26,591 nucleotides of DNA from Candidatus Woesearchaeota archaeon (GTDB lineage Archaea; Nanobdellota; Nanobdellia; SCGC-AAA011-G17; GW2011-AR18), in contig JACRKJ010000043.1 of NCBI GenBank assembly GCA_016219825.1, positions 1 to 26,591 on the forward strand, given 5' to 3'. The notes beneath the pieces are model-generated. The model was not told where the DNA came from and did no database searches. It saw only the letters and a program-made list of their open reading frames with translations. Every line of letters starts with the position of its first letter. Positions within the stretch are counted from its first letter, which is position 1. A program made the position numbers and the translations under genes. Shown piece after piece: positions 10,664 to 24,124 of this stretch.

Positions 10664-10678
10664 GAAAACCTTTTAAAG
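10664..10678 (+). promoter_or_regulatory. BRE/TATA-like promoter of first pilin-like operon
   Basis: GAAAACCTTTTAAAG; TTTAAAG at 10672 is 29 nt before ATG 10701. Confidence 0.6.
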
Positions 10679-10700: not shown

Positions 10701-11453
10701 ATGCAGAAAAGAGGGCAGGTCACGTTGTTTGTATTCTTAGGGTTAGTTGTCCTGATTTTAATTTCATTATTTTTTTACGTCCGGTCTCAGTATGGATTTT
10801 TTGTTCCTTCCCAAGATTTTTTATCCTCTAAAGCAAGCGATATCCAGCAGGATCTTGAATATTGCGTTGAGACAGAAGTTTCTCCGCTCGTTAAAGAATT
10901 CTCCTTACAAGGAGGAAATCTACACCCCACTTCGTTTGTTTTGTATCATGATTCTCCTGTTTCATTTTTATGCAGAAAAACAAACCATGGAACGTGTGTT
11001 AATTATTTAACTCCATTGGGGGGTATGCTAACGAATCTACAAAATTCTTTAGACCAGAAGTTAAACGCATGTGTGAATAAAAAATTATTATCTGAACAAG
11101 GATTCAGCATTACTGGGAATAAAAATGTTCAATCTCTTGTCCAATTACAAGGAAATTCAATCAGCGTTGTTTCCACATATGATGTCCAGCTTCATCGCGA
11201 CACCGCAAGCATGCGCATTTCCCCTGTTAGAAAAACAATCGCGGACGCCCCACTTGGGGAATTATATCCTGTTGTGCATGATATCCTAGAAAAAGAAGCG
11301 ACTGCTGGAACATTTGACCAACTGTTTTATATGCTGCAGAAGAAAGGAAAATACTTGATCGAAGTTGACAGGCCGTATCCACATACTATTTATAGAGTAT
11401 ATAAAAAAGACAGCACATATGAGTTCTGGTTCGCTGTTGAGGGGAAAGCATGA
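10701..11453 (+). CDS. Class III signal peptide (prepilin-like) protein
   Basis: MQKRG/QVTLFVFLGLVVLILISLFFYV: short basic leader, G, Q at +1 and a hydrophobic helix; 250 aa with Cys in the globular part; ATGA overlap with the next gene. Confidence 0.8.
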   Translation: MQKRGQVTLFVFLGLVVLILISLFFYVRSQYGFFVPSQDFLSSKASDIQQDLEYCVETEVSPLVKEFSLQGGNLHPTSFVLYHDSPVSFLCRKTNHGTCVNYLTPLGGMLTNLQNSLDQKLNACVNKKLLSEQGFSITGNKNVQSLVQLQGNSISVVSTYDVQLHRDTASMRISPVRKTIADAPLGELYPVVHDILEKEATAGTFDQLFYMLQKKGKYLIEVDRPYPHTIYRVYKKDSTYEFWFAVEGKA

Positions 11454-14400
11454 AGAAATTTGTAGCTCTCTTTGAAATTCTGCTTCTTGTTCTTACAAGC
11501 TTTACTGTTCTTAGTTTTTCCGCTCCTTCTGTTCGTGCCGCTCCTGTTTGCTGCGAGAAAACAAAAGCTGGAGAATTCTGCCAGTATACTGATGAACAAC
11601 AATGCGAGACTGGATTACGAAACGCAAATGATCCAAGCAAAGGAACCTATCAAAACGCGCCTACCAGCTGTGACGCAACTTCCTTCTGCAAACCTGGTTG
11701 CTGCAGCGATGAATTAGGAGATGGATTTTGTTATTCAAATACGCCAAAAGCGAACTGCCAGCTTTCTTATGGCGGGAAATTTTCTGAACAACCTGATTGC
11801 TCTACTGTTGGAAGCTGTTCTGAAGGCTGCTGTATTCTAGGAAGCCAGGCTTTCTTGAGCACTTCTGTCCGCTGCCAAAAAGAAGCTGCCAAATATCCTT
11901 CCCTTACCCTTGACTTTAAAGCTGATGTGAAAGATGAGGCAAGCTGTGTCGGACTGGCGAAGAGCGCTGATAAAGGCTGCTGCGTCAACAGCCAAGACAA
12001 CTGCAAATATGTAACACGCGCTGAATGCTCTGCCTCAACAAATGGGAACAGCACTGGATTTTTTTCTGGGAAAGCATGCAGCGATTTGGGATTAAGCACA
12101 TGCACCTGCGCTCCAGCTGATAAAAACACGCAAGGAAAAGACAACACTATGTGCATCCCTGACGATGATTCTGTATATTGGAAAGATAGTTGTGGGAATC
12201 CTGAAGGGATCAAGGAAAAATGCGATTACGCTTCTGGAACTCTCTGCGGGGATTCCAATGGCGACCGGATTTATACATGCGAAAGCGTCAATTGCAAGAC
12301 TGGGGATAAAAAATTAAGCTTGGATTTTGACAGCCAAGCGAAAGACAGCGTTACACACGATACAACTGTGAGAAATGGGGAAAGCTGGTGTTTGTATGAT
12401 CCTGAAATCCAGCCTGGCGGTGATGGACTGAGCAATGACCAGTTGTTATCCAGTGTCACTGGAAAAAATTTACGCAATCTTTTGTATGCTTCCCGCGAGC
12501 CTGTTGGATCACGACATTATCGTGGCTCTTGCATTAATGGAAAAGAATATGTTGAACCATGTTCTGATTTTCGAAAAGATTATTGTTTACAAAGTTCTGT
12601 TGGCGGCAACGCGAGCATGAACCTTGGGAATGATGGAGAGAAATTCACTGAAGCGAAATGCACTGAAAATAGAGCTGGAAGCTGCATCAGCGACTGCAAT
12701 AAAGCTGACCCAACTAAATTTAAAAAATCTGATGGAAGCTTAGACCAGGCTGCTTTTGAACAAGCGCTGCAAGAAGATGTGCAATGCTGCACTGATGTTT
12801 CAAAAAGAGATTGCGCATGGGCTGGAACAAAATGCGTTCCGCGTGTCGGACAAGGATTCAAGCACTGGGAAGGAGATGGCGTTACTACTTGCGCAAGCGC
12901 CAGCTTAGACTGCTCTTTTACTGTCAAGTGCAATGGATGGAGCAATCTTTTTGGACTTTGCAAAAATTATTGGTATCCTATTGATGGAAGCGGGAACCAG
13001 CTCAGCATTGACCAAATTCCCTGCTTGAGAAAAGAGTATGTGCAGACCGCGAATAATTATTGCAGAAGCTATGGCGACTGCGGCGCTGATTATAATATCG
13101 CGGGGAAATTAACCACTGAAGGATTTTCCAGCCCACCTACTTTGGGAGATGATTTTGAGAACATTGTCAGCTACGCAGGCGTTGATAAAAAAACGAGCGC
13201 TTACCTTCATGAGATCGCATTGAGCGCGAAGAATCCCCCACGATGGGATATTGGGTTAGGCGCAATTAATTTTTCCCTTCCTCCAGAACAGTATAACGCG
13301 TGGGCAGATTACTTTGTTGGAAGCGCTTGGGACATCCCTCATTGGCTCGCTCTCGCGAATGTCGCTCCTTATGTTGTTGTTGGACTTGCTCATTTGGCAG
13401 GATTGACTACAATTAGCGCGGAGCTTGGACTGACTTATCTTTCAGCGCCTTTGGCAGGTCTTTTTGCGCAGGCGACTGCAACAGCTACAACAGCTACAAC
13501 AGCTTCTGCCGTCGCAACTCTTATTCCTATTATCAATGTTGCTCTGATTATATATACTGTTTATTCCATTGTTGATGTCGCGAACGCTGACATACAGACC
13601 CTTTCTGTCAAAACATTATGCAAACCATGGAGTGCCCCTGTCGTCTCGAATGACTGCGAGAAGTGCAATCCTGATTACTGGAAAACAAAGGATGGAAAAC
13701 CCACTGATGTCAATGCGTTTAAGGCATGCTCTGAATACCGCTGCAAAAGTTTAGGAGCGACGTGCCAATTCATCAATCAAGGCACTGGCAATGAGACCTG
13801 CGTCAGCGTCAGCAAAGGCGATGCGCAAGCGCCGATTATCAGCCCATTAAAAGAAAAATTCGAAAAAGAATATCAAAATAATATCCAGACTGTGCAACAA
13901 GGATTAGAAGTTACTAAAAACTTCACTGTGTACACTCCTGTTGTTGTCGCGCTGCAGACTGATGAACCAGCGCGATGTAAAATGAGCTTCAAGCCTGGAC
14001 GGCCTTACAAAGAGATGGACGATATTTTCTTTGGCCAGTCTATTTTCCAGTATCCCCATGTACAGCCTGTCTATTTCGCGAGCAATAAAGTCGTTGATGA
14101 AAAAGGCGTTTCTTTACGCGGCGGAGGGGAATACAAACTTTATGTCCGATGCGAGGACGCTGGCGGCAACACCAATGAAAAAGATTATGTATTAAAATTC
14201 AAGGTTGATCCGCAGCCTGACGCGACCGCCCCTGTTATTCAAGCGACCTCTGTTGGGAAAGAAGTGTACTTGACTGCTGGGACCGGCAATAACACTGATG
14301 TCACCCTCTATACAAATGAACCAGCGGACTGCAGATGGAGCTTCAATCCACTGCGTTATACTGAAATGCCCGCGACACAACAATGCACGACGCGCCCGCA

Positions 14401-15139
14401 GCCTGATGTCTTGGGATACACCTGCGAGTTTAGGAATAATACGCAACTTGGCACAAAACCAATTGCCTTCAGCAAACCTGTCGCAGCAGGAGAAAAAATA
14501 TTCACCTATTTCAAATGTCAGGATAAATCTCCACAGCACAATTTCAATAAAGACCCTTATGATGTCACGTTTTATGGGACAAAACCTTTATCGATCACGA
14601 ACATTGAACCTAGCGGATCCCTCTTCAGCAATCTCGCTGTTCCAAATGTAACTTTGCATGTTGAAACTTTAGGCGGAGCAAAATCAAACGGTGAAGCGCT
14701 CTGCAAATACACGCAGCGAGCATCGTACGCGCATACTCTTTCCGCGATGGATGATTTTTTCCAGCAAACAAATGGAAGCAGCCATGAACAAACCTTGAAA
14801 TTATCGACTGGCGACCATACATTCTTTGCCGGCTGTTATGATGTCGCTGGCAACACTGCATATACAAATACTACCTTCAGTTTACTCGCAGATAATACTG
14901 GGCCAACGATCTTGAAAGCATATAAATCAGACCGCCCTTCGCAATTAATTTTAGCTGTAAGCGAGGACGCAACGTGCCAGGAAAGCGTTACGAATAAGAA
15001 TTTTGTTTTTGGCGAGGGAAACTTACTGCAGAAAGACGGGAATGTCCATACAAGTTTAACGCAATCTGATGTGTATTATATACATTGCAAAGATAACTAT
15101 AATAATATCGGCAATGTTATTACGCTAACGTTTGTTTAA
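11450..15139 (+). CDS. Giant Cys-rich secreted protein with internal hydrophobic hairpin and four C-terminal Ig-like repeats
   Basis: 1229 aa with a Sec-type signal (MKKFVALFEILLLVLTSFTVLSFSAPSVRA), about 64 Cys by hand count including repeated GCC motifs, a hydrophobic stretch at about aa 632-707 and no C-terminal TM helix. Confidence 0.85.
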   Translation: MKKFVALFEILLLVLTSFTVLSFSAPSVRAAPVCCEKTKAGEFCQYTDEQQCETGLRNANDPSKGTYQNAPTSCDATSFCKPGCCSDELGDGFCYSNTPKANCQLSYGGKFSEQPDCSTVGSCSEGCCILGSQAFLSTSVRCQKEAAKYPSLTLDFKADVKDEASCVGLAKSADKGCCVNSQDNCKYVTRAECSASTNGNSTGFFSGKACSDLGLSTCTCAPADKNTQGKDNTMCIPDDDSVYWKDSCGNPEGIKEKCDYASGTLCGDSNGDRIYTCESVNCKTGDKKLSLDFDSQAKDSVTHDTTVRNGESWCLYDPEIQPGGDGLSNDQLLSSVTGKNLRNLLYASREPVGSRHYRGSCINGKEYVEPCSDFRKDYCLQSSVGGNASMNLGNDGEKFTEAKCTENRAGSCISDCNKADPTKFKKSDGSLDQAAFEQALQEDVQCCTDVSKRDCAWAGTKCVPRVGQGFKHWEGDGVTTCASASLDCSFTVKCNGWSNLFGLCKNYWYPIDGSGNQLSIDQIPCLRKEYVQTANNYCRSYGDCGADYNIAGKLTTEGFSSPPTLGDDFENIVSYAGVDKKTSAYLHEIALSAKNPPRWDIGLGAINFSLPPEQYNAWADYFVGSAWDIPHWLALANVAPYVVVGLAHLAGLTTISAELGLTYLSAPLAGLFAQATATATTATTASAVATLIPIINVALIIYTVYSIVDVANADIQTLSVKTLCKPWSAPVVSNDCEKCNPDYWKTKDGKPTDVNAFKACSEYRCKSLGATCQFINQGTGNETCVSVSKGDAQAPIISPLKEKFEKEYQNNIQTVQQGLEVTKNFTVYTPVVVALQTDEPARCKMSFKPGRPYKEMDDIFFGQSIFQYPHVQPVYFASNKVVDEKGVSLRGGGEYKLYVRCEDAGGNTNEKDYVLKFKVDPQPDATAPVIQATSVGKEVYLTAGTGNNTDVTLYTNEPADCRWSFNPLRYTEMPATQQCTTRPQPDVLGYTCEFRNNTQLGTKPIAFSKPVAAGEKIFTYFKCQDKSPQHNFNKDPYDVTFYGTKPLSITNIEPSGSLFSNLAVPNVTLHVETLGGAKSNGEALCKYTQRASYAHTLSAMDDFFQQTNGSSHEQTLKLSTGDHTFFAGCYDVAGNTAYTNTTFSLLADNTGPTILKAYKSDRPSQLILAVSEDATCQESVTNKNFVFGEGNLLQKDGNVHTSLTQSDVYYIHCKDNYNNIGNVITLTFV
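13479..13504 (+). repeat. In-frame 9-nt tandem repeat (CAACAGCTA x 2.9)
   Basis: CAACAGCTA CAACAGCTA CAACAGCT, within the ATATATTATTAS loop of the hydrophobic hairpin. Confidence 0.8.
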
Positions 15140-15558
15140 TTTTCTTTTCGTTCTATTATCTTTATAATCTCTTTTGTTGAAAGAACCTTAACTTCTACTT
15201 GGTCTTTAAGCGCCTCGTCGTTTGACCAGAGAAAACATTGTTTTTTTAACGCAAGCGCCAGATAAAGAGCATCATCTGGATCTGGACTTATTTCTCTTGC
15301 TTTTGGCAGCTTTTCTTCGCATTCTTGCGCACTTACTGTTGTGACTACTTCCTTTAACGCTTTTACAATCTCTTCAAACTGCTCCCCTTTTCTTTTTGTC
15401 TTCTTCAAGATTTCCCCCCTATGCCTCTCAAATTCTTCAAAGAGAAATTCAGGGGCAAATAAATTTACACTGCTCGAGAAAATAATCTCCGCAGTTACGC
15501 TTTCTTTAATCAGGGCAGCAAAAAGAATATTTGCGTCAATAACCAGACTTAGACTCAT
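15136..15558 (-). CDS. vapC: PIN-domain toxin (VapC-like)
   Basis: 140 aa with LVIDANILFAAL, EEF, DPDDALYLALAL and LWSND; the acidic PIN residues appear intact. Confidence 0.9.
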   Translation of the reverse strand: MSLSLVIDANILFAALIKESVTAEIIFSSSVNLFAPEFLFEEFERHRGEILKKTKRKGEQFEEIVKALKEVVTTVSAQECEEKLPKAREISPDPDDALYLALALKKQCFLWSNDEALKDQVEVKVLSTKEIIKIIERKEN

Positions 15559-15776
15559 TTTCTGTAATGTTTTGCTACTGCATTGTTGACTTTTTTTCCT
15601 AACTCAACCGCGTCTTTTTCAGTCAATTCACTGTTTTTTGTGAATTCCTTAAACTTTTTTAGCAATGATACTCTTTTCTTAATCGCTTCCCTCGCTATAG
15701 CTGACCAATTAATTTCGTGGAATTCATCCATTTCTTTCTTCAGGTCTTCAGGTACAGAAAGTGTTATGCTTACCAT
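15555..15776 (-). CDS. Ribbon-helix-helix antitoxin (VapB-like)
   Basis: 73 aa, MVSITLSVPEDLKKEMDEFHEINWSAIAREAI; ATGA overlap with the PIN gene. Confidence 0.85.
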   Translation of the reverse strand: MVSITLSVPEDLKKEMDEFHEINWSAIAREAIKKRVSLLKKFKEFTKNSELTEKDAVELGKKVNNAVAKHYRK

Positions 15777-15820
15777 TGTTGTTTTATCTGTTTGTTCTGT
15801 TTATTATGTGTAATATGTTT

Positions 15821-15836
15821 TTATACTTAAACCTTT
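15821..15836 (-). promoter_or_regulatory. BRE/TATA-like promoter of VapBC-like pair
   Basis: Minus strand AAAGGTTTAAGTATAA. Confidence 0.55.
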
Positions 15837-15883
15837 TGTTTTTGCCGAAATCTATTGAACTGAGTTCCCTATCTAATATTCCC

Positions 15884-15896
15884 AAAGCTTTAAAAG
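15884..15896 (+). promoter_or_regulatory. BRE/TATA-like promoter of second pilin-like operon
   Basis: AAAGCTTTAAAAG; first T at 15889 is 29 nt before ATG 15918. Confidence 0.6.
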
Positions 15897-15917
15897 AGCC
15901 TTCTGCTCTTTTTTTAT

Positions 15918-16400
15918 ATGCAGAAAAGAGGGCAATTACTTTCCCAGCCGTTCATGGCTATTTTAGCGTTAGCGACTATCGCGTTTATTTTATTTTTTGG
16001 ATTTTATCTCATGAACACTGTCTTCAACACATCCAGGACTGTTGACACAAAAGTTTTCCAGAGAACTTTAGAGAATTCCGTCAATGAAATTTACCAGCGC
16101 CCTTCTGGAAGCTCGAAAGAAATTAACATCCGCGTCCCAAATGGAATCACCACCATTTGCTTTGTTGACCTTACCAGTCCTGCAGACCTCTCCTCCGCGC
16201 CGCAGCAGCTTCAACCAGGATTAACACTTTTACAAAAATCACAATCCTCTAAAAATGTTTTTTTCGTCTCTCAAAAAACCACTGAACCTTTAACTTTAGC
16301 GCATTTACGTCCGCAACATCTCTTCTGCGCGAATACAGGCACAGGCACTTTGAACGTTTTTGTTGAGAACATTGGAGAAACTGTCGATGTTCGCGCATAA
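15918..16400 (+). CDS. Class III signal peptide (prepilin-like) protein
   Basis: MQKRG/QLLSQPFMAILALATIAFILFFGFYLM; 160 aa. Confidence 0.8.
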   Translation: MQKRGQLLSQPFMAILALATIAFILFFGFYLMNTVFNTSRTVDTKVFQRTLENSVNEIYQRPSGSSKEINIRVPNGITTICFVDLTSPADLSSAPQQLQPGLTLLQKSQSSKNVFFVSQKTTEPLTLAHLRPQHLFCANTGTGTLNVFVENIGETVDVRA

Positions 16401-17355
16401 AAAAGGAGAGACTGAACAATTCAACTGGATCTTTGTTCTCGTAGCTGGAGCGATTTTCTTTTCGTTCTTTGTTTTTTTCACGTTTCGCTTCGCGCATGCG
16501 CAAGAGCAAAAACATAATTTAGCCCTCGCAAAAATATTATATGACGGAGCTTTAGGCGTCGCGGGCACAAAAAATAATTTAGACACCACCCTACAATTTC
16601 CCCAACCTGTAGAACTTATTTTCACCTGCCTTGGAACGAGGGCCGCATTCTCCATCAACCATGAAGACCCAGCAGAAGAACTTGAACCTTCCCTGCTTGT
16701 ATTTATGCCTGGCCATTTTTCCGGAACAAAAATCCAGACTTGGACGAGCTCCTGGAACCAGCCTTTTTTCATCAACAATATTGTTTACTTCTCCTCGCTG
16801 GAAAAAGAATATTACCTTATTTATGACCAAGCACACGCCTCTTTTGTTGATGAACTTTCCTTTCCTTCCCAGCTTCGTGTTCACAAACAAGCGCGCAGTA
16901 TTTTCATTCCCAATAGCTCACAATTAACTGTCGCTTTTTTTACGAATGAACCACCAACATCCCAAGAATTACAGAGCCTTCCTTCAGCAACCATCTTATT
17001 TGTCCAGCCTGAACAGCAAACTTTTTCTTATTATTCCTCAGCTGGAAAGCTATCCAACACAATATATTATTATGACTCTTCTTTTTTAACAGGAGCGCTT
17101 GTTTCTGACGTCTCTTCTTTTTCCTGCTCCTTGCAACGAGCACAACAGCGATTTGAAAAAATCTCCTCTTTGTACGCAGTCAAGGCAGGATTGCTAGACC
17201 AACACAGAATGAAAACAGACTGCTCTTATTCCACTATCCAGCAAACACTTCAACACGCGCCACAACTTCTTCCTATTCAAAAAGAAGCGTTGACTACAAG
17301 CTTGCTCGCACAAAACGCACAACTTATCGGCAACGGATGCAGGGGAGTTTTTTAA
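16387..17355 (+). CDS. Class III signal peptide (prepilin-like) protein, larger subunit
   Basis: 322 aa from ATG 16387 (GGAGA at 16374-16378); MFAHKKG/ETEQFNWIFVLVAGAIFFSFFVFF. Confidence 0.78.
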   Translation: MFAHKKGETEQFNWIFVLVAGAIFFSFFVFFTFRFAHAQEQKHNLALAKILYDGALGVAGTKNNLDTTLQFPQPVELIFTCLGTRAAFSINHEDPAEELEPSLLVFMPGHFSGTKIQTWTSSWNQPFFINNIVYFSSLEKEYYLIYDQAHASFVDELSFPSQLRVHKQARSIFIPNSSQLTVAFFTNEPPTSQELQSLPSATILFVQPEQQTFSYYSSAGKLSNTIYYYDSSFLTGALVSDVSSFSCSLQRAQQRFEKISSLYAVKAGLLDQHRMKTDCSYSTIQQTLQHAPQLLPIQKEALTTSLLAQNAQLIGNGCRGVF

Positions 17356-17356
17356 G

Positions 17357-17827
17357 ATGAAAGGACAACTCGCCCTTCAAGAAACAATCTTAGTTGTTTT
17401 CATTTTAACGGTCTTACTTATTTTAGGATTATTTTTCTTCTCTAATTACCAATTGCAGCAGATCAAGCAAGAACGACAACTCGCGTCTTCTGAACGATTT
17501 CATCAGATGATCTCTACTTTTCCAACGCTCGCAGAAGTCAGCTGCTCTCTTCAAGGCAATAGAGAACCATGCTTAGACACTTTAAAACTTACCGCGTTCC
17601 AGCAGACGATCAAAACAAATCCAGCTTATTATCAAAGCATTTTCGAATCGAAGAATATCACTGTTTCCACTTATTATCCCTCAACCACCCAGAGCTGGCA
17701 GATTTACAACCAAAAAAGCCCTTCATCTACAGGCAAAGACAGGATCATTACGCCGATTAGTCTGTACTCTCCTTTAGAAGGCAAATACTCTTTAGGCATT
17801 CTTGTCTTGGAGGATTACGTTGCATGA
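17357..17827 (+). CDS. Class III signal peptide (prepilin-like) protein
   Basis: MKG/QLALQETILVVFILTVLLILGLFFF; 156 aa; GGGGAG upstream and a 1-nt gap to the previous stop. Confidence 0.8.
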   Translation: MKGQLALQETILVVFILTVLLILGLFFFSNYQLQQIKQERQLASSERFHQMISTFPTLAEVSCSLQGNREPCLDTLKLTAFQQTIKTNPAYYQSIFESKNITVSTYYPSTTQSWQIYNQKSPSSTGKDRIITPISLYSPLEGKYSLGILVLEDYVA

Positions 17828-18291
17828 AAGGGCAAACTGAACTTGTCGGGCTTGTCCTTATTGTATTACTTCTGGCCGCAGCTGGCTTATTCTATCTGAA
17901 GTTTGTTGTGCTTCAACCAGACCAGCGTCCTTCTTCATTGGAAGCTGTTTCCCAATCCACGAATTTATTATATGGGATTATCCATGTCCCTTTATGCGCT
18001 AATTTCACTGCCCTTGATTTTTTAGACGCCTGCTCTTCACAACGCACCTTATGCGATGAACCACAGCCCTGCTCGGTTTTAGAACAACAGCTTCCCCTCA
18101 TCTTTGACCCAGTGTTTCATCGTTATATTGGGATGAATTATACCTTTTCCGCACAAACAGCTGATGAAAAAAATCCTTTTTTCAAATTGGGAATGAAATG
18201 CAAGCATGGAAGCACACAAGCGCGCATCTCTCCCAGAACATCCAACCAAATCTATTCCCTTAGCTTTGATTTATGCGCGAAACCAGTCTAG
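17824..18291 (+). CDS. Class III signal peptide (prepilin-like) protein
   Basis: MKG/QTELVGLVLIVLLLAAAGLFYL; 155 aa with several Cys; ATGA overlap and GGAGGA SD. Confidence 0.8.
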   Translation: MKGQTELVGLVLIVLLLAAAGLFYLKFVVLQPDQRPSSLEAVSQSTNLLYGIIHVPLCANFTALDFLDACSSQRTLCDEPQPCSVLEQQLPLIFDPVFHRYIGMNYTFSAQTADEKNPFFKLGMKCKHGSTQARISPRTSNQIYSLSFDLCAKPV

Positions 18292-18414
18292 TTTTTACAT
18301 AATTTCACTAAAAAGTGATAACGTAAATTTCTTTTCCCTTCATCCTGTTGTTGTTTATACCTGGTAAAAGCCGTGAATTTGGCCAAACTAACAATATGTA
18401 TGTTCTCGAGTATA

Positions 18415-18468
18415 GGAATCTTTATAAATGCAACAACGTCAACACCCAGTACACAACACTTGGAGGTG
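18415..18468 (+). promoter_or_regulatory. S-layer gene promoter and strong Shine-Dalgarno site
   Basis: TTTATAAA at 18421-18428 and GGAGGTG at 18462-18468, 6 nt before ATG 18475. Confidence 0.7.
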
Positions 18469-18474
18469 TTACTT

Positions 18475-20895
18475 ATGCAAGAACGTTTAGCGTTACGACA
18501 AACATTAAAGAAAGTTGCTGCTTTGGGTACCAGCGTAGCAATGTTAGGAATGACTATTACTGGGGCTGTTGCTCAAGAACAAGCTGCCGCTTCTAGCGCG
18601 AGTTTAAGCTCATTTCCAAAAGCTTTTACAACTAACACTGTCGTTGTTGTGGGTTCACATGCTGATCCTGCTGATAATTTAGCTGCAAGCGCAGTTGAAT
18701 TCGCTTTAGGCGCCGCATCCGCATCTGCAAGTTCCAGCTCTTCATCAACGAGCTCTACCACTTCTTCGACTACACCTTCTACTGGCGCAGTCCAACTAGA
18801 AGATGGATATAGCAAAGAAATTGTTCTTGGAACAGCTTTAACTGATTCCACAAACGCATTTGGCGCGACAGTCCGGGAAACACGTATCCCGACTTTTAAG
18901 AAAGGAACTGTCACTATCTCTATTGGAGGAACAACAAATTCCTACAATTGGCATGAAGAAGTTGGCTTTCGAGCAGACTCTAATGCGACTGTTACTTCAT
19001 CTTTAGCTTTAGCAAACCAAAATCAAGCTAATGAACAGTATAAGGACAATGTGCTTTTACGACTTCCATCAAGTTCGATTCGTTACGCATATGTCTTTGA
19101 CACTGCCTTGAAGACAAACAACTATATTTCGAACGCGACACAGACTGACCCTATTACATTGGATTTCTTAGGTAAAACCTTAGTTATTCAAAACTGTAAC
19201 AGCTCTCCTTGTACTGGAGCAACAACTGCCGCAAGTTCGATTACTGCCTTATCTGGAGACAAATTCCCAGGTTTGCATAAAGGGGATACCATTATGTACC
19301 AAGGAAAGAAAATCTCTGTTGATTCACTTGCCTCCTCTGGAGCTGCAATCAACGTTGATGGCAATACTATCGTTGTCAGCAATAACAACCAGCGAACAGA
19401 CCAAAAATCTGGCTTGCAAATCCGCGCAGAAGATCTTCTTGCGACAGGAACAAGCGGAGAAGGTTTAAGCACTGTTTCCTTGATTATTGGAAAAGATAAC
19501 GCGATTAAGACGTATAATGATGGAGATTACTTTATCGGGCAAGATAAATACACTCCTTTATGGACTTGGTCTCTTGCAGGCATTAATGGTGGAAATCCAA
19601 GCTTAAATGTGACATTGGGACAAACATTGACCTCGTACTCTATTACAGGCATTCCCAACTATCCATTGACGCATCCACCTTATCTTGGTGATGTGCTTTG
19701 TTGGCCAAACAACTATATCTGTGTTCAGGTTTCAAAGGTAAGTCAAACAGATGATCTCTTTGGAGAATATGTCTTGCGACCTACTCAAAGAGACTTGTAC
19801 GCAACTGATGACTCTGTTGTCAACTTTACCTCTGCAAATGTGCTTGAACTTACAGCACTTGGACAGAAGGATACAGGTATCAACGCAGGTGGAGATACAC
19901 AATCTGTTTATTTCTACCCTAATGCAACCTATGGTCTCTTGCTCTATAAGAAGAAACAAGATTCCAGCCACGCTATTCTTGTAGCAGCTGCTACAAACAC
20001 TCTGCACGCAGGTGATGGTGCTACAGCTGGATGGGGCGGTGCTATGGACGCAGTCGCTTTCGCAAATGCGAACGGGACGACAATGCTTCCAGGCAACTTC
20101 TCCGCGAGCGTCTTTACCTTGAACTACAAGAGCAGTAGCATTCCAGTAGATATTGCATGGAACTCAAGCGTTTCGCTTGCCAACATTACCCTTACTGGTG
20201 GAAGCGGCGCAGGAGCATTAAAGATCAATCCCTCAGGAACTGCGAATGATATTGTTGTTGTTTTGCAAGCAGCGAGTACTGGATTGACTTATTTGGGTCA
20301 ATCCCAATCTGATACTGTCAGAGGCGGCGATTTGGCTTACAATGGGACGACAGCTGTTGATATTTCCGGCTTCCGTGAAGATGGAAGAACTGTCAACGGC
20401 ATTATTGTTCGTTCGTACTATAAATCTGCGCCTTCTGATACGTTGCAGTTTGCATTGCCTCCAGACATTTCCAACTACAAAGCGACTGTGAAGTTAGCCC
20501 GCGCAGTTGGAGCTGGTGTTGTTGGTACTGTTGTTCCAGGCAGCACAAGCACTAGTGGCGTCAGTGAGAAGCTTGATACTGATGTTGTCAACAGCTTATC
20601 GCAATGGAATGTCATCAGTGTTGGCGGACCTGCTATCAACTCTGTAAGCGCAAAGCTGAAAGGACTGCCTTTCCCAAGTTACGGGGACGCAAGCGGTATC
20701 AAACCAAATGAAGGCGTCGTTGAGCTTATGCCAAACGGCAGCAACTGGGCACTCTTAGTGGCTGGCTATGAGAAAGACAATACACAAGCTGCTGGTGAAG
20801 TCCTTAAGAATTATGCGGACTACAACACACAACTTTCTGGCAAGACCTCAGTCGTTGTGAAAGGCTTGAAAGCAACTGGCATTACCGTTGCTTAA
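18475..20895 (+). CDS. S-layer protein (MJ0822-like S_layer_N / S_layer_C architecture)
   Basis: 806 aa from ATG 18475. Signal LKKVAALGTSVAMLGMTITGAVA, N-terminal VVVVGSHADPADNLAASAV, C-terminal NVISVGGPAINSVS...LLVAGYEKDNTQAAGEVL, and about 12 sequons. Confidence 0.88.
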   Translation: MQERLALRQTLKKVAALGTSVAMLGMTITGAVAQEQAAASSASLSSFPKAFTTNTVVVVGSHADPADNLAASAVEFALGAASASASSSSSSTSSTTSSTTPSTGAVQLEDGYSKEIVLGTALTDSTNAFGATVRETRIPTFKKGTVTISIGGTTNSYNWHEEVGFRADSNATVTSSLALANQNQANEQYKDNVLLRLPSSSIRYAYVFDTALKTNNYISNATQTDPITLDFLGKTLVIQNCNSSPCTGATTAASSITALSGDKFPGLHKGDTIMYQGKKISVDSLASSGAAINVDGNTIVVSNNNQRTDQKSGLQIRAEDLLATGTSGEGLSTVSLIIGKDNAIKTYNDGDYFIGQDKYTPLWTWSLAGINGGNPSLNVTLGQTLTSYSITGIPNYPLTHPPYLGDVLCWPNNYICVQVSKVSQTDDLFGEYVLRPTQRDLYATDDSVVNFTSANVLELTALGQKDTGINAGGDTQSVYFYPNATYGLLLYKKKQDSSHAILVAAATNTLHAGDGATAGWGGAMDAVAFANANGTTMLPGNFSASVFTLNYKSSSIPVDIAWNSSVSLANITLTGGSGAGALKINPSGTANDIVVVLQAASTGLTYLGQSQSDTVRGGDLAYNGTTAVDISGFREDGRTVNGIIVRSYYKSAPSDTLQFALPPDISNYKATVKLARAVGAGVVGTVVPGSTSTSGVSEKLDTDVVNSLSQWNVISVGGPAINSVSAKLKGLPFPSYGDASGIKPNEGVVELMPNGSNWALLVAGYEKDNTQAAGEVLKNYADYNTQLSGKTSVVVKGLKATGITVA

Positions 20896-20969: not shown

Positions 20970-21581
20970 ATGAAAAAGCAACGCTACAGAAAGTCTGATG
21001 GAATATCATCAGAAATAAATGCTCGTGATCCTTCTTTGTTTAAACGACGATTCACTTTAGGAATCCTCGCTTTTGGCATTATCTTTCTCATGGTTGGATC
21101 TGTGTTAACCTACTGGGCAAGTTCAGCAGCAGATCAATCTGTGTATAATGGCTATTCATTTTTTCAGTCTGGACAAGGATGGACGACACAAATAGACGGC
21201 CAGACATTGACCTTTCCTGTTCTGCCTAAAGATGTCGCTTCATTTCCCAGCGTTCAGTTTGACCTTGACCCTTATCCTAAGTTATATCTTCTTTTTAATC
21301 CAGACAACTTTACTGAACAAAGCAGAGAGGTCGCGCAACTTCGAAGCGCGCTTTTGAGCACTGGAAAAACTATTGTTCCAGCATGCACACAATCTTTCTC
21401 CTGCGGCGACTTACCTGTTCTCAACTGCACAACTGCTGACGCGCCCAGCCTTCTTTTAGAGCAAAGCGATGTTACAGGATTATTCGCTTCTGACCGGTGC
21501 TTGGTTCTCCACTACGCGCCTGGGCAGTATGATTCCTTACTTGTTCATTTCTTGTATAAATATTACCATATCCTCCCATGA
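20970..21581 (+). CDS. Membrane-anchored extracellular protein of unknown function
   Basis: 203 aa with a basic N-terminus, TM helix FTLGILAFGIIFLMVGSVLTYW, YNGYSF, ACTQSFSCGDLPVLNC and DRCLVL. Confidence 0.8.
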   Translation: MKKQRYRKSDGISSEINARDPSLFKRRFTLGILAFGIIFLMVGSVLTYWASSAADQSVYNGYSFFQSGQGWTTQIDGQTLTFPVLPKDVASFPSVQFDLDPYPKLYLLFNPDNFTEQSREVAQLRSALLSTGKTIVPACTQSFSCGDLPVLNCTTADAPSLLLEQSDVTGLFASDRCLVLHYAPGQYDSLLVHFLYKYYHILP

Positions 21582-22201
21582 AACTGCTCTTTGTTTTTTT
21601 CTGCATTCTTCTTTTCATAAGCGCATGCTCTCCTCCAGACCCAACCCATTTTGTGTATCATGGAAAAAACGGCGATTATCCTGTTGATGTTGTGACACGA
21701 GGAAATTCCACTGATTATTACATTACTGTTTTATTTCAAAATGAAACTGGAAATGTTTCCTATCAAATCCCCCTTTCATTTAGCCCAGTGAGTGTTGTGA
21801 ATGTTTCTGTTGAAGGAAATATTGAGTCCGCGTTGAACAGACCCCAGGAAACTAACCTTGTTTATATCACCCAGGATCCGCAGACCGCTGTCCTTACAGA
21901 CCAAAAATCTGTGCTTGCTGTGTATGACATTGGGAAAATTTTAGGGACTGGAAGCGCTGGACTGTATAAAATTCCGACACTTCCCGCATTCACTTCCGCC
22001 ACTGAACGTTCTCAAATCAATAGCATCCCCGTTATTGCCTGCAGCAACGTTTCTTCAACTGCCGGCGTTATTTTATTGCAGTTAGGAAATACTACCCGTA
22101 TTCTTGTACAGAATGACTGCATCATTGTTGAAGGAACAAATGGGACAGAACTATTCCGCGCAGCAGACAAACTCGCTTACTCTCTTCTTGGCGTTTTTTA
22201 G
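21578..22201 (+). CDS. Lipobox-like extracellular protein, distant paralog of the preceding gene
   Basis: 207 aa; MKLLFVFFCILLFISAC, IPVIAC, NDCIIVEG, AADKLAYSLLGVF; ATGA overlap with the previous gene. Confidence 0.8.
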   Translation: MKLLFVFFCILLFISACSPPDPTHFVYHGKNGDYPVDVVTRGNSTDYYITVLFQNETGNVSYQIPLSFSPVSVVNVSVEGNIESALNRPQETNLVYITQDPQTAVLTDQKSVLAVYDIGKILGTGSAGLYKIPTLPAFTSATERSQINSIPVIACSNVSSTAGVILLQLGNTTRILVQNDCIIVEGTNGTELFRAADKLAYSLLGVF

Positions 22202-22257: not shown

Positions 22258-22938
22258 GTGAATTCATTGGCACAACAACCAAAACCCATTTCTTCTTTCG
22301 TTCTTTTCAGCTTGTTTTTTTTAGCAGGTTTGTATTTAGGATACAGCGTTTTTTCCTTTTTAAATTCCTGGCGATCTAATCCCTCCGCGCTTGGCGCAGC
22401 AACCAGCACTGTTGGGAACTTTACCGTGAGCCTTGTCAGCACGATCGCATGCACCTGGAGCGATGCAGCAATTAACATCACGTTTGGCACGCCAGGCTCT
22501 ACCATCACCCAAGGCAATACTCTCAACGCGTCCCGCAATTACAATTATTCCACTGATGGCGCTGGCAGCGCTTCCAATGGCAGCGATTACAATGTGACTG
22601 CCGCAGCCACCAATACAGTTAAGGTCAACATTACTCTCGCTGGACAGTCTCTTCTTGAAACAGCTGGCGGCAATGTCTTGAACATTACGAATATTTCCTG
22701 GGGATCTAATACCACCACCGCAAACAGCACTGGCGGTACTGCGCTTGATAACATGACCTATCCTGGCGTGCCCTTTAACTCAAGCTTCCAGGGTGATACA
22801 TCCCATCATGTTGCCACGCTTGAACCTGCAGGCAGCTCTGTCTGGTTTCGATTCTGGCTCGCTGTCAACAGCAACCAAGCTGCTGGTCTCTATCGCGGCA
22901 ATTACACGATGACCTGCTCAGACTCAGGATCAGCATAA
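22258..22938 (+). CDS. Sequon-rich two-Cys beta-sandwich surface protein (subunit A)
   Basis: N-terminal TM helix, exactly two Cys (IACTWS, TMTCSD) and 14 N-x-S/T sequons. Start uncertain: GTG 22258, or TTG 22267 preceded by GGTGA at 22257-22261. Confidence 0.8.
   Translation: MNSLAQQPKPISSFVLFSLFFLAGLYLGYSVFSFLNSWRSNPSALGAATSTVGNFTVSLVSTIACTWSDAAINITFGTPGSTITQGNTLNASRNYNYSTDGAGSASNGSDYNVTAAATNTVKVNITLAGQSLLETAGGNVLNITNISWGSNTTTANSTGGTALDNMTYPGVPFNSSFQGDTSHHVATLEPAGSSVWFRFWLAVNSNQAAGLYRGNYTMTCSDSGSA
22410..22429 (+). repeat. 20-nt exact direct repeat shared by subunits A and A' (second copy 23659-23678)
   Basis: TGTTGGGAACTTTACCGTGA at both sites, followed by TTGTCAGCAC at 22433-22442 and 23682-23691. 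Confidence 0.85.
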
Positions 22939-22939
22939 A

Positions 22940-23518
22940 ATGATCCCACGTTTTTCCCTCTTTTGCGTCTTACTTCTCCTTTTGAGTATTCCTTTCGCTG
23001 CCGCTGATATCGGCATTGGATTAAGCCCAGCTAAACGTGTTTTCCATAATATTGAAGGCGGACAAACTATTGAGGAAACTTATACTGTCTATAATACAGG
23101 GGATGGTCCAATCAACGCTAATCTCGGCGCAGATGGCGCAATCGCTTCATTTGTTACAGTTATCCCTAAAGCTGTTTATGTTGAGCCTGAACCTCAACCA
23201 CATTCATTGCCTATTAAAAATGGAAAACAGTTTACAGTGCGATATAAAGTTCCTACTGGCTGGGAAGCGAAGCTTTATACTGGACAGATCGTCGCATCTG
23301 GCGGCGCTGCTGGCGGGACGCTTGGCGGTAATGTCGCTGTCGCGATGGTCGTTGAACTTTATTCTATTCCTACGAAATATTTCTGGAATCGCATCAGCAA
23401 AGAACAATACCTGCTTACTGGGAGTATCTTCTTATTCTTGATGCTTCTCCTCCTTACTCTTGTTTATATGCGGCGCAAAGGGATTCAAATCCAACTTGTT
23501 AAATCAAGACGTCCCTAA
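22940..23518 (+). CDS. Secreted single Ig-like domain with C-terminal TM anchor (partner B)
   Basis: 192 aa; signal ending FAAA, then DIGIGLSPAK...YTVYNTGDGP...YKVPTGWEAKLYTGQIVA, TM helix LLTGSIFLFLMLLLLTLVYM and a basic tail; 1-nt gap from the previous stop. Confidence 0.8.
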   Translation: MIPRFSLFCVLLLLLSIPFAAADIGIGLSPAKRVFHNIEGGQTIEETYTVYNTGDGPINANLGADGAIASFVTVIPKAVYVEPEPQPHSLPIKNGKQFTVRYKVPTGWEAKLYTGQIVASGGAAGGTLGGNVAVAMVVELYSIPTKYFWNRISKEQYLLTGSIFLFLMLLLLTLVYMRRKGIQIQLVKSRRP

Positions 23519-23560
23519 TTTAGGGAAAACAATAAAAACTAGATCTACTCTTCTTAGTTT

Positions 23561-24124
23561 ATGCAGAAAGCGGTGATTTTCCTTTATCTGTCTCTTTTTC
23601 TCGTTCTTGGGTTTTTATTAGGACTTTTTTCCATTCATTATACTGGGCATCAAACTTTTGTTGGGAACTTTACCGTGAATGTTGTCAGCACTGTCTCCTG
23701 CACTGTCAGCACTGATGGAATGAACGTTTCATTTGGAAGCAATTTAGAAGATGGTGAGGTTTATAACGCTACAAAAAATTATAACTATCGAACTGTCGGC
23801 ACTTCTTATAATATTACCAATGATCAGACAAGCACTACCACAATGAATGTCAGCATTAAAGGAATTGATTTTATTTCTGATTCATTGGTTCTTAAGATAG
23901 GTAATCTCTCATGGGCGAGCAATGATACCTCCCCTAATGGGACTAATCTTCTCTTTCCAGGAATGGCGAATCTATCCACTAGTTATTCTTCCCTTAATCT
24001 CGCTTCTGATCTCAGCGCTGGAAGCACAGCATGGTATCGTTTTTGGATCCGTATCCCTGACAATCAACCTGGAGGTTCCTATCAAGGAAATTATACTCTT
24101 TTATGCCAAGCAAACAACCCTTAA
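23561..24124 (+). CDS. Sequon-rich two-Cys beta-sandwich surface protein (subunit A', paralog of 22258-22938)
   Basis: 187 aa with an N-terminal hydrophobic helix, two Cys (VSCTVS, TLLCQA) and 10 sequons; co-linear motif match to subunit A. Confidence 0.82.
   Translation: MQKAVIFLYLSLFLVLGFLLGLFSIHYTGHQTFVGNFTVNVVSTVSCTVSTDGMNVSFGSNLEDGEVYNATKNYNYRTVGTSYNITNDQTSTTTMNVSIKGIDFISDSLVLKIGNLSWASNDTSPNGTNLLFPGMANLSTSYSSLNLASDLSAGSTAWYRFWIRIPDNQPGGSYQGNYTLLCQANNP

What the first reader, a model, noticed from the sequence alone, without database searches (positions are those of the whole stretch)
10701..18291. Candidate DPANN contact apparatus: five non-canonical prepilin-like genes plus a giant Cys-rich protein
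Seen: five genes begin K[KR]G or MKG followed by Q/E and a hydrophobic helix (KRG/QVTLF, KRG/QLLSQ, KKG/ETEQF, KG/QLALQ, KG/QTELV), and none has Glu at +5. They form two tightly coupled units (overlaps of 4, 14 and 4 nt and a 1-nt gap) split by a TA pair, directly upstream of the S-layer gene. No ATPase, TadC-like platform or prepilin peptidase is in the window. Established: Q+1 recalls EppA-processed DUF361 pilins, which do have E+5, and minor pilins that prime a tip often lack E+5. Inference: this is a dedicated tip complex that displays the 1229-aa protein, plausibly for host attachment. I know of no characterised system with this composition.
Basis: partly seen in the sequence, partly recalled or inferred. 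Interest (0 to 1): 0.8.

Follow-up and report, generated by a model that had tools for sequence, protein, structure and literature searches.

The report
Pilin-like genes with giant surface protein
Five genes for type-IV-pilin-like proteins and one giant cysteine-rich surface protein form an unannotated module kept in about nine of ten genomes of a whole class of tiny, probably host-dependent archaea, which makes it a strong but unproven candidate for their cell-surface attachment structure.

Summary
Genes A (10701-11453), B, C, D and E (15918-18291) start with K[KR]G or KG followed by Q/E and a hydrophobic helix. None has Glu at +5. The stated overlaps and the PIN toxin-antitoxin insert are real.

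The set is far from chance. The B-C-D-E order is kept in 30 loci of the order and in 10 loci of other orders. Family C occurs in 269 of 301 genomes sampled from the phylum. A is always coupled to a giant Cys-rich protein.

AlphaFold models of A and C are confident (pLDDT 91). Both show pilin-like N-terminal modules, though matches to solved pilins are weak.

The genome encodes a class III signal peptidase, T4F ATPases and platform proteins on other contigs. In sister orders the module lies directly beside tandem small major-pilin candidates.

Best reading: these are the minor-pilin and adhesin structural genes of a type IV filament. "Tip display" is not shown. Sister-order giants carry their own transmembrane anchor and cytoplasmic tail. 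S-layer adjacency was seen only in loci of the window's own order.

A second cassette on another contig pairs an A paralog with a 2227-aa giant bearing a lytic transglycosylase domain.

No paper describing the module was found. This scan has reported the same module before in other genomes.

The parts
10671..10678 (+). TATA-like box TTTTAAAG, 23 nt before the ATG of gene A. It is the likely promoter of the A-giant unit.
   Evidence: Read directly from the sequence. The same box and spacing occur before gene B. Inference only; no transcript data were available.
10701..11453 (+). Gene A: a 250-aa prepilin-like protein (KRG|QVT.F) with four conserved Cys. It is the proposed adaptor pilin of the giant.
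   Evidence: ORF. In a 16-sequence alignment K3 and Q6 are invariant. The model has pLDDT 91 and pTM 0.82. Best solved match is GspK at Z 6.1, with many minor pilins in the top 50. A bacterial TadE cluster matches with TM 0.63 by the hit. The 4-nt overlap with the giant gene is kept in relatives.
11450..15139 (+). Giant gene: 1229 aa with a Sec-type signal peptide. It has four 'CC' cysteine modules (aa 34-220), 47 Cys up to aa 544, a hydrophobic Ala/Gly-rich stretch (aa 629-704), and four Ig-like repeats each with a Cys pair (aa ~800-1229).
   Evidence: Only a partial Big_13 match in Pfam. Homologs were found in 36 of 41 relatives, with one to four copies per locus, usually adjacent. It is homologous to sister-order giants (HMM E 6.5e-17 to 3.5e-8). 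Atlas neighbours are all 'hypothetical protein' of Nanobdellota or Woesearchaeota.
15136..15776 (-). Inserted toxin-antitoxin pair: a PIN_2 toxin (15136-15558) and a 73-aa partner (15555-15776). It is not part of the module.
   Evidence: PF10130, E 2.4e-25. At the same site relatives carry other inserts: an HTH-nucleotidyltransferase pair, an AAA_14/DUF4143 ATPase, or a MazE-like pair. In sister orders the giant and B are contiguous.
15889..15896 (+). TATA-like box TTTAAAAG, 22 nt before the ATG of gene B. It is the likely promoter of the B-C-D-E unit.
   Evidence: Inference only.
15918..16400 (+). Gene B: a 160-aa prepilin-like protein (KRG|QLLSQPF). Gln, not Glu, sits at +5 class-wide.
   Evidence: The family HMM weakly hits pilin-like genes beside the ATPases on C55 and C41 (E about 5e-5).
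16387..17355 (+). Gene C: a 322-aa prepilin-like protein (KKG|ETEQFNW). It has a pilin-like N-module, an alpha/beta subdomain and a C-terminal four-helix bundle.
   Evidence: Model pLDDT 91.2, with helix 6-59 and strands 66-146. AFDB rank 4 is a 'Class III signal peptide-containing protein' matching residues 11-133 (probability 1.0, TM 0.57 by the hit). No solved pilin matched. The family is present in 172 of 201 genomes of the order and 269 of 301 of the phylum sample.
17357..17827 (+). Gene D: a 156-aa prepilin-like protein (KG|QLALQET). Glu is at +6 in 31 of 34 family members.
   Evidence: The best PDB profile hit is the geopilin N-domain at E 0.086, which is not significant.
17824..18291 (+). 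Gene E: a 155-aa prepilin-like protein (KG|QTELVGL). Glu is at +3 in 23 of 26 members, and the ectodomain has six conserved Cys.
18475..20895 (+). Neighbouring S-layer gene (806 aa from ATG 18475), with its own TTTATAAA box and GGAGGTG ribosome-binding site. It is a separate transcription unit.
   Evidence: PF05124, E 1.4e-8. The start was chosen by likeness to ortholog N-termini. An S-layer-like N-terminus follows E in at least 13 of 23 loci of the order, and no S-layer-like gene follows E in the five sister-order loci whose gene maps were read.

Best explanation
The stretch holds the accessory structural genes of a type IV filament (archaeal pilus-like) system of a Woesearchaeota-type DPANN archaeon.

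Shown:
- A-E are five distinct protein families with a conserved class III (prepilin) signal.
- A and C have pilin-like N-terminal modules in confident predicted models.
- The six-gene module A-giant-B-C-D-E is conserved across the class.

Inferred:
- The genome's single class III signal peptidase (on contig C14) cuts after the G/A at -1.
- A T4F ATPase and platform encoded elsewhere (C55, C41) then insert the subunits.
- B-E, which are single-copy and keep a fixed order, would act as a core minor-pilin (priming) set. The filament's major subunit would be the small K[KR][GA]|QGLS.NVIII-type pilin. This pilin is encoded directly after E in sister orders and on C14 here.
- A is translationally coupled to the giant and co-duplicated with it, so it would be the pilin-like adaptor that ties the giant to this complex.
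- The giant is disulfide-rich and carries Ig domains, so it would be an adhesin.
- The likely role is adhesion to surfaces or host cells.

Whether the giant rides on the filament tip or stays in the membrane beside its base is open.
For: The motif and the ORFs are. Synteny was seen in 6 long loci, 30 loci of the order and 10 loci of other orders. Family C is in 172 of 201 genomes of the order and 269 of 301 of the phylum sample.

Model A has pLDDT 91, with GspK as top match at Z 6.1 and 12 pilins or pseudopilins among the top 50 rows. A TadE cluster in the ESM Atlas also matches it. Model C has pLDDT 91, a 54-residue N-terminal helix plus sheet, and an AFDB match to a class III signal peptide protein.

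The machinery is present. Peptidase_A24 is on C14, T2SSE ATPases are on C55, C41 and C8, and T2SSF platform genes are on C55 and C41. The peptidase is found in 292 of 301 genomes of the phylum sample.

In 9 of 10 sister-order loci, B-E lie inside pilin islands. These include two to four tandem pilins of 77-121 aa, immediately after E in at least one locus (L078) and within a few kb in the others. Some of those genes are weak homologs of this genome's C14 pilin cluster.

The B family HMM hits pilin-like genes beside the ATPases. The 4-nt A/giant overlap and the co-duplication of the A-giant pair are seen.

A second cassette, a long A paralog plus another giant, is conserved. The long A paralog is in 77 of 81 genomes, and a giant homolog follows it in 14 of 14 loci.
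Against: - No Pfam or NCBIfam pilin family matches any of A-E.
- Structural matches to solved pilins are weak (Z below 8). C has none in the PDB.
- The module is not linked to an ATPase or platform gene in any complete genome examined.
- Sister-order giants are type I membrane proteins with a cytoplasmic tail. That argues against transport on a tip.
- There are no expression, processing or imaging data. No RNA run was listed.
- B, D and E were not folded individually.
Confidence: 0.55

Rival explanations
1. The module builds an envelope-embedded pseudopilus or scaffold, like the bindosome, or an S-layer passage device, rather than a filament tip. In this reading A-E form a short membrane-proximal stub. 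The stub holds the giant in the quasi-periplasm, or locally opens or anchors the S-layer. The giant stays anchored in the membrane.
For: Sister-order giants have a transmembrane helix plus a cytoplasmic tail, and the window's giant has a central hydrophobic stretch. The module sits directly upstream of the S-layer gene across the order. The 2026 survey of archaeal T4F notes Ig-fold, S-layer-like proteins in T4F loci and proposes that they prime the envelope for the filament (PMC13705601). The Sulfolobus bindosome is a precedent (PMC3047682, listed).
Against: No S-layer-like gene follows E in the five sister-order loci whose gene maps were read. In sister orders the module abuts tandem small pilins typical of a real filament. 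Several Woesearchaeota giant paralogs have no strong hydrophobic segment.
Confidence: 0.25
2. These are not pilins at all. A-E would be ordinary N-terminally anchored (signal-anchor) membrane proteins of envelope biogenesis. Their K-K/R-G start would merely reflect the positive-inside rule.
For: No pilin family is matched by sequence. C's ectodomain is mostly non-pilin. No assembly genes lie nearby.
Against: The [KR][GAS]|Q motif is near-invariant, with family-specific conserved positions (Glu+6 in D, Glu+3 in E, Gln+5 in B), across many families of genomes. The predicted modules are pilin-like. The genes are embedded in pilin islands. The B family HMM hits pilin-like genes of the ATPase loci.
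Confidence: 0.1
3. The module is a competence-type (Com-like) pseudopilus for DNA or nucleotide scavenging, with four minor pilins plus extras. The giant would be an unrelated neighbour.
For: Only the gene count and size pattern resemble ComGD-GG. From general knowledge, DPANN depend on scavenged nucleotides. Nothing here tested this reading.
Against: The giant is translationally coupled to A and co-conserved class-wide. No DNA-binding or ComEA/ComEC-type gene was seen in the loci read.
Confidence: 0.05

Closest known systems
Bacterial T4aP minor-pilin/PilY1 priming and tip complex (fimU-pilVWXY1E) and the T2SS GspH-I-J-K pseudopilus tip
   Same: One module holds four to five different pilin-like genes plus one non-pilin protein of about 1200 aa with a Sec signal. 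One subunit is much larger than the others (C at 322 aa, compared with GspK). Glu+5 is missing, as in GspK and PilX. GspK is the best solved match of model A.
   Different: There is no sequence homology. The signal is the archaeal class III type. The giant is built of Cys-rich modules and Ig-like repeats, with no vWA or beta-propeller match. The giant has hydrophobic or transmembrane segments. The genes are unlinked to the ATPase and platform genes. Complex formation is untested.
Epd pilus of Methanococcus maripaludis / archaeal T4F 'system 1' (EppA-processed DUF361 pilins)
   Same: It is archaeal, has Gln at +1, and uses several minor pilins plus large accessory proteins. This genome has an Epd-like locus on C55 with QxSxE pilins, an ATPase and two platform genes. 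PMC13705601 reports system-1 pilins in 1990 Nanobdellati genomes.
   Different: A-E lack the QxSxE motif and Glu+5, and they do not match PF04021. They lie in a separate locus. Whether the C55 machine assembles them is unknown.
Tad/Flp pilus pseudopilins TadE/TadF/TadG
   Same: Model A matches a bacterial TadE-family cluster (TM 0.63 by the hit). Both have small pilin-like proteins alongside a larger pilin-like partner.
   Different: This is structural likeness only, on a short module. No Tad-specific genes are present.
Sulfolobus bindosome (BasABC plus class III-signal binding proteins)
   Same: Class III-signal proteins carry functional ectodomains and are kept at the envelope by a T4F-type machine. 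A-family relatives in AFDB carry cadherin, carboxypeptidase-regulatory-like or S8 peptidase domains.
   Different: There are no solute-binding domains or ABC transporter genes here, and giant partner proteins are present.

Membership tests
Archaeal type IV pilin-like proteins (class III signal peptide) | An N-terminal [KR][GA] cleavage motif followed at once by a hydrophobic helix of about 20 residues | tested here: met
   All five genes have it. It is conserved class-wide in 21-36 members per family.
Archaeal type IV pilin-like proteins (class III signal peptide) | A long N-terminal alpha-helix packed on a beta-sheet (the pilin 'lollipop') | tested here: inconclusive
   In C, helix 6-59 plus a sheet matches a class III protein in AFDB. 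In A, helices 3-31 and 37-69 plus a sheet give pilin and pseudopilin matches at Z 3.7-6.1. All matches are below the level that proves a shared fold. B, D and E were not folded.
Archaeal type IV pilin-like proteins (class III signal peptide) | Cleavage by a class III signal peptidase (PibD, FlaK or EppA) | not testable with these tools
   The peptidase gene is present on C14 (PF01478, 57.6 bits; weak FlaK_Arch match).
Archaeal type IV pilin-like proteins (class III signal peptide) | Assembly by a T4F ATPase and platform protein | not testable with these tools
   The genes are present on C55 and C41. They lie far from the module in closed genomes.
Archaeal type IV pilin-like proteins (class III signal peptide) | A match to curated pilin models (PF04021 Class_IIIsignal, PF07790 Pilin_N) | tested here: not met
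   There is no match for A-E even at E up to 1. The genome's C55 and C41 pilins give sub-threshold matches.
EppA-dependent DUF361 (Epd) pilins | Gln at +1 | tested here: met
   Gln+1 is present in A, B, D and E of the window and dominates class-wide. C is variable.
EppA-dependent DUF361 (Epd) pilins | The QxSxE motif with Glu at +5 | tested here: not met
   Position +5 is F in A, Q in B, F/Q in C, Q/M in D and I/L/M in E.
Minor-pilin/PilY1 or GspHIJK tip complex | Homology of the subunits to FimU/PilVWX or GspH-K | tested here: inconclusive
   No sequence match was found. GspK is the best structural match of A at Z 6.1.
Minor-pilin/PilY1 or GspHIJK tip complex | The large partner has a PilY1-type vWA or beta-propeller domain | tested here: not met
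   The giant has only a partial Big_13 match and Cys modules plus Ig-like repeats. No fold prediction was made for it.
Minor-pilin/PilY1 or GspHIJK tip complex | The subunits form a complex | tested here: inconclusive
   The co-fold of B-E gave 'no answer'. It is not used as evidence.

The most novel reading that the evidence does not exclude
A-family pilin-like proteins would be general adaptors that load interchangeable giant extracellular proteins onto one type IV filament machine. The same genome has A plus the Cys-rich giant, and a long A paralog plus a 2227-aa giant whose variable C-terminus is here a murein lytic transglycosylase. The four-subunit core B-E would be shared. Together they would form a pilus-based device for presenting adhesins and cell-wall-cutting enzymes to host cells. 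That would be the physical basis of episymbiosis in Woesearchaeota and Pacearchaeota.
Probability: 0.25. Interest if true: 0.85.

Novelty: new variant of a known kind. Interest (0 to 1): 0.7.

Why it matters
Woesearchaeota and Pacearchaeota are abundant, uncultured archaea with tiny genomes. They are thought to live attached to hosts, but no attachment structure is known for them.

This module is one of their most conserved lineage-specific gene sets. All six of its families are annotated as hypothetical. It links pilin-like subunits to giant surface proteins. Through a sister cassette, it also links them to the large murein-transglycosylase proteins that Castelle et al. (2021) proposed as host-wall binders.

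This gives concrete targets for testing how these cells contact hosts: antibodies, proteomics of sheared appendages, and cryo-ET of enrichments. It would also extend the bacterial arrangement of four core minor pilins plus a large adhesin to archaea.

Tried and rejected
- The co-fold of processed B, C, D and E gave the verdict 'no answer'. The score was 0.60. A control with chain 2 swapped scored 0.58, and controls with the partner swapped scored 0.00. It is not used for or against binding.
- Profile searches of C and D against PDB sequences gave nothing significant. The best for D was the geopilin N-domain at E 0.086.
- Foldseek against the PDB gave no match at E <= 0.001 for model A or model C.
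- Pfam and NCBIfam gave no family for A-E or the giant. Scanning every member of the B and D alignments also gave nothing consistent.
- Language-model neighbours of D and E include DUF7287, DUF7288 and DUF7285 clusters of other archaea. No HMM corroborates this and no paper mentions these families, so it remains a lead only.
- The search for related loci with the C alignment failed because there was no conserved stretch. With the giant alone it returned one named relative, a Woesearchaeota MAG.
- The word-indexed homolog search with the C profile gave only 12 hits, all 'hypothetical protein'.
- An RNA-run search listed none. The only holder is a groundwater metagenome.
- I tested whether the lytic transglycosylase domain is a constant feature of the second giant. 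It is not. Three orthologs lack it, and only residues 1 to about 1870 are conserved.
- Co-occurrence of the peptidase and family C is uninformative, because both are near-universal.


Full report
**Observation.**
- A: 10701-11453, 250 aa, MQKRG|QVTLF.
- Giant: 11450-15139, 1229 aa.
- A minus-strand pair at 15136-15776.
- B: 15918-16400, MQKRG|QLLSQ.
- C: 16387-17355 from its ATG, HKKG|ETEQF.
- D: 17357-17827, MKG|QLALQE.
- E: 17824-18291, MKG|QTELV.

The overlaps of 4, 14 and 4 nt and the 1-nt gap are correct. None of the five has Glu at +5. The inserted pair is a PIN_2 toxin (PF10130, E 2.4e-25) with a small partner, and the next gene carries the S-layer outer domain PF05124.

A and B each have a TTT(T/A)AAAG box 22-23 nt before the ATG. 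This suggests two transcription units with very short leaders. The S-layer gene has its own TATA-like box and a GGAGGTG site before ATG 18475.

A crude FlaFind-like scan found four of the five genes among 37 hits in the 732-kb genome. About 0.4 are expected in 7.6 kb.

**Where it comes from.** The only named relative of the giant in the species-genome collection is a Candidatus Woesearchaeota MAG. Homologs of C are labelled Nanoarchaeia, Nanoarchaeota or Woesearchaeota archaeon. The sequence is held by a groundwater metagenome run. The assembly has 732 kb in 85 contigs and is 80.6% complete.

**Conservation.** The giant has homologs in 36 of 41 relatives, with one to four copies per locus, usually adjacent. 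Long loci from six genomes of different families show one block. It runs: signal peptidase I, TFS, a membrane protein, PCNA, one to three (A + giant) pairs, a variable insert, B, C, D, E, the S-layer gene, and two small genes.

A profile of C finds the family in 172 of 201 genomes of the order (94 of 102 high-quality ones). It finds it in 269 of 301 genomes sampled from the phylum at 80% completeness or more, all in the same class, covering 200 of 225 genera.

The order B-C-D-E is kept in the 30 loci of the order and in 10 loci from other orders. In those other orders the arrangement is contiguous: A (400-500 aa), a giant of 1700-2000 aa with 76-118 Cys, then B, C, D, E. No S-layer-like gene follows E in the five of these loci whose gene maps were read. 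Within the order, an S-layer-like N-terminus follows E in at least 13 of 23 loci. So the six-gene module is class-wide, and the S-layer adjacency was seen only in the window's own order.

**Are they pilin-like?** A position table over 21-36 members per family gives K at -3, K/R at -2, G/A/S at -1 and Q at +1 for A, B, D and E. C is more variable at +1. Each family has its own conserved positions:
- F+5 and G+9 in A.
- Q+5-P-F in B.
- QFNW in C.
- E+6-T+7 in D (31 of 34).
- E+3 and G+6-L+7 in E.

This degree of conservation is not expected of a mere signal anchor. All ectodomains have conserved Cys pairs.

No curated pilin model matches.

AlphaFold2 gave confident models for two families.
- A has pLDDT 91.1 and pTM 0.82. 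It has helices 3-31 and 37-69, then an alpha/beta domain.
- C has pLDDT 91.2 and pTM 0.84. It has one 54-residue helix (6-59), a sheet (66-146), an alpha/beta subdomain and a four-helix bundle.

For A, Foldseek found nothing in the PDB. The exhaustive VIA search put GspK of the GspK-I-J tip complex first (Z 6.1). Twelve of the top 50 rows were type IV pilins or pseudopilins: PilB, PilJ, PilX, TTHA1218, PilA4/5, EpsI/J, PilV, XcpV/W, a Shewanella pilin and FimU. The ESM Atlas search added a bacterial TadE cluster (TM 0.63 by the hit). All Z values are below 8, so this shows enrichment rather than proof.

For C, the PDB searches are dominated by its C-terminal bundle. In AFDB clusters, residues 11-133 match a 121-aa 'Class III signal peptide-containing protein' (probability 1.0, E 3.7e-3, TM 0.57 by the hit).

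AFDB relatives of A include proteins that add cadherin, carboxypeptidase-regulatory-like or S8 peptidase domains. So the A module also occurs as a carrier of functional domains.

**Machinery and pilin context.** The genome has one Peptidase_A24 gene on C14. NCBIfam's FlaK model matches it only weakly. It has T2SSE ATPases on C55, C41 and C8 and T2SSF platform genes on C55 (two) and C41.

C55 is an Epd-like locus, with pilin-like genes starting QVSFEY and QIATEY and a sub-threshold PF04021 match. C14 carries five more prepilin-like genes, including a 149-aa KRG|QSLPMNVVII protein.

In 9 of 10 sister-order loci, B-E lie in pilin islands. These contain two to four tandem pilins of 77-121 aa of the K[KR][GA]|QGLS.NVIII type, immediately after E in at least one locus (L078) and within a few kb in the others. 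Several island genes are weak homologs of the C14 cluster.

The B profile hits the pilin-like genes next to the ATPases on C55 and C41 (E about 5e-5). The peptidase is found in 292 of 301 genomes of the phylum sample. In closed genomes the ATPases lie 40 kb or more from the module. This agrees with the scattered T4F genes reported for Nanobdellati (PMC13705601).

**The giant.** It has a Sec-type signal peptide and four roughly 45-aa modules that each begin with CC (aa 34-220). There are 47 Cys up to aa 544. A hydrophobic Ala/Gly-rich stretch with two segments spans aa 629-704. Four Ig-like repeats follow, each with one Cys pair. Seven of the ten N-glycosylation sequons lie in aa 781-1140. Both halves therefore look extracellular.

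Sister-order giants are homologous (HMM E 6.5e-17 to 3.5e-8), but four of the five examined are type I membrane proteins (the fifth, L075, showed no internal hydrophobic segment at the threshold used). These four have a huge Cys-rich ectodomain, one strong transmembrane helix, and a Cys-free, Lys/Arg-rich tail of 150-260 aa. Several paralogs within the order have no strong hydrophobic segment. This is the main reason to doubt a simple 'displayed at the tip' picture.

**A as partner of giants.** The A and giant genes overlap by 4 nt here and in relatives, and the pair duplicates as a unit. Contig C65 carries a 711-aa A paralog (family HMM E 3.9e-29). It is directly followed by a 2227-aa secreted protein whose C-terminus is an SLT lytic transglycosylase domain (PF01464, E 5.6e-8).

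The long paralog is present in 77 of 81 genomes of the order. A homolog of that second giant follows it in 14 of 14 loci. Only residues 1 to about 1870 of this giant are conserved. Three orthologs lack the SLT domain, so its C-terminal end is variable.

Castelle et al. (PMC8204110) described such murein-transglycosylase proteins of up to 3000 aa in Pacearchaeota and Woesearchaeota. They proposed attachment to bacterial walls, within a module of 51 mostly unknown lineage-specific families. They did not report the pilin-like partner.

**Mechanism.** Most likely (0.55), A-E are processed by the class III peptidase and assembled by a T4F machine encoded elsewhere. B-E would be a core minor-pilin set, and A the adaptor for its giant adhesin. 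The small QGLS.NVIII pilin would be the major subunit.

The main rival (0.25) keeps the same parts but places them in a short envelope-embedded scaffold or S-layer passage device. In this rival the giant remains membrane-anchored. That the proteins are not pilins at all (0.1), or serve DNA uptake (0.05), is less likely.

Every step after 'pilin-like families in a conserved module' is inference.

**Comparison and novelty.** The gene logic resembles the bacterial fimU-pilVWXY1E and GspH-K sets and, among archaea, the Epd/system-1 locus. Defining features of those families are not met: QxSxE with Glu+5, curated HMMs, and the PilY1 domains.

Full-text searches found no paper describing this module. 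The 2026 T4F survey (PMC13705601) and the 2019 'dark matter' review (PMC6393860) come closest. The review lists a DPANN-specific secreted family next to S-layer-like genes. I therefore class the finding as a new variant of a known kind.

After forming this reading I looked up the scan's own notes. The same module has been reported before in at least eight other genomes, with the same overall verdict. What I tested here independently agrees with those notes.

I did not see the following points in those note summaries:
- the tandem small pilins next to E in sister orders;
- the membrane topology of sister-order giants;
- the conserved pairing of a long A paralog with a second giant.

Noticed in passing
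own genome, contig C65 (L084:1327-10139): This is a second cassette. A 711-aa A-family prepilin-like gene is directly followed by a 2227-aa secreted protein with a C-terminal SLT lytic transglycosylase domain. The pair is conserved in the order (77 of 81 genomes; 14 of 14 loci). The SLT end is variable, and three orthologs lack it.
   Followed up: partly
window 15136-15776, and the same site in L023, L025 and L031: The gap between the giant gene and B is an insertion hot spot. It holds PIN_2 plus a partner here, an HTH-nucleotidyltransferase pair in G025, an AAA_14/DUF4143 ATPase in G023, and a MazE-like pair in G003. Sister orders have no gap.
   Followed up: partly
window 18373-18477: The S-layer ORF listed from GTG 18373 most likely starts at ATG 18475. 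The N-terminus MQERLALRQTLKK then matches orthologs, and GGAGGTG lies 6 nt upstream.
   Followed up: partly
window 20970-22201: Two coupled genes after the S-layer gene (203 and 207 aa) have homologs at the same place in two of the relatives' loci compared (G012, G030). They have no family match.
   Followed up: no
own genome, contig C14 (L082:9447-14066, minus strand): This is an island of five prepilin-like genes. It includes a 149-aa candidate major pilin (KRG|QSLPMNVVII) and lies on the same contig as the only class III signal peptidase gene (202-1065).
   Followed up: partly
window 11450-15139, aa 629-704 of the giant: The giant has an Ala/Gly-rich hydrophobic stretch with two segments between two Cys-containing halves. 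Four of the five sister-order homologs examined instead have one strong transmembrane helix near the C-terminus and a basic cytoplasmic tail.
   Followed up: partly
window 1035-2858: This is a 607-aa surface protein with a Big_9 Ig domain (E 1.5e-7) and a C-terminal transmembrane helix. It is another large surface protein on the same contig.
   Followed up: no
window 22258-26010: These are duplicated pairs of secreted or membrane proteins with no Pfam match. My loose scan flagged 23561-24124 (MQKA|VIFLYL) as weakly prepilin-like.
   Followed up: no
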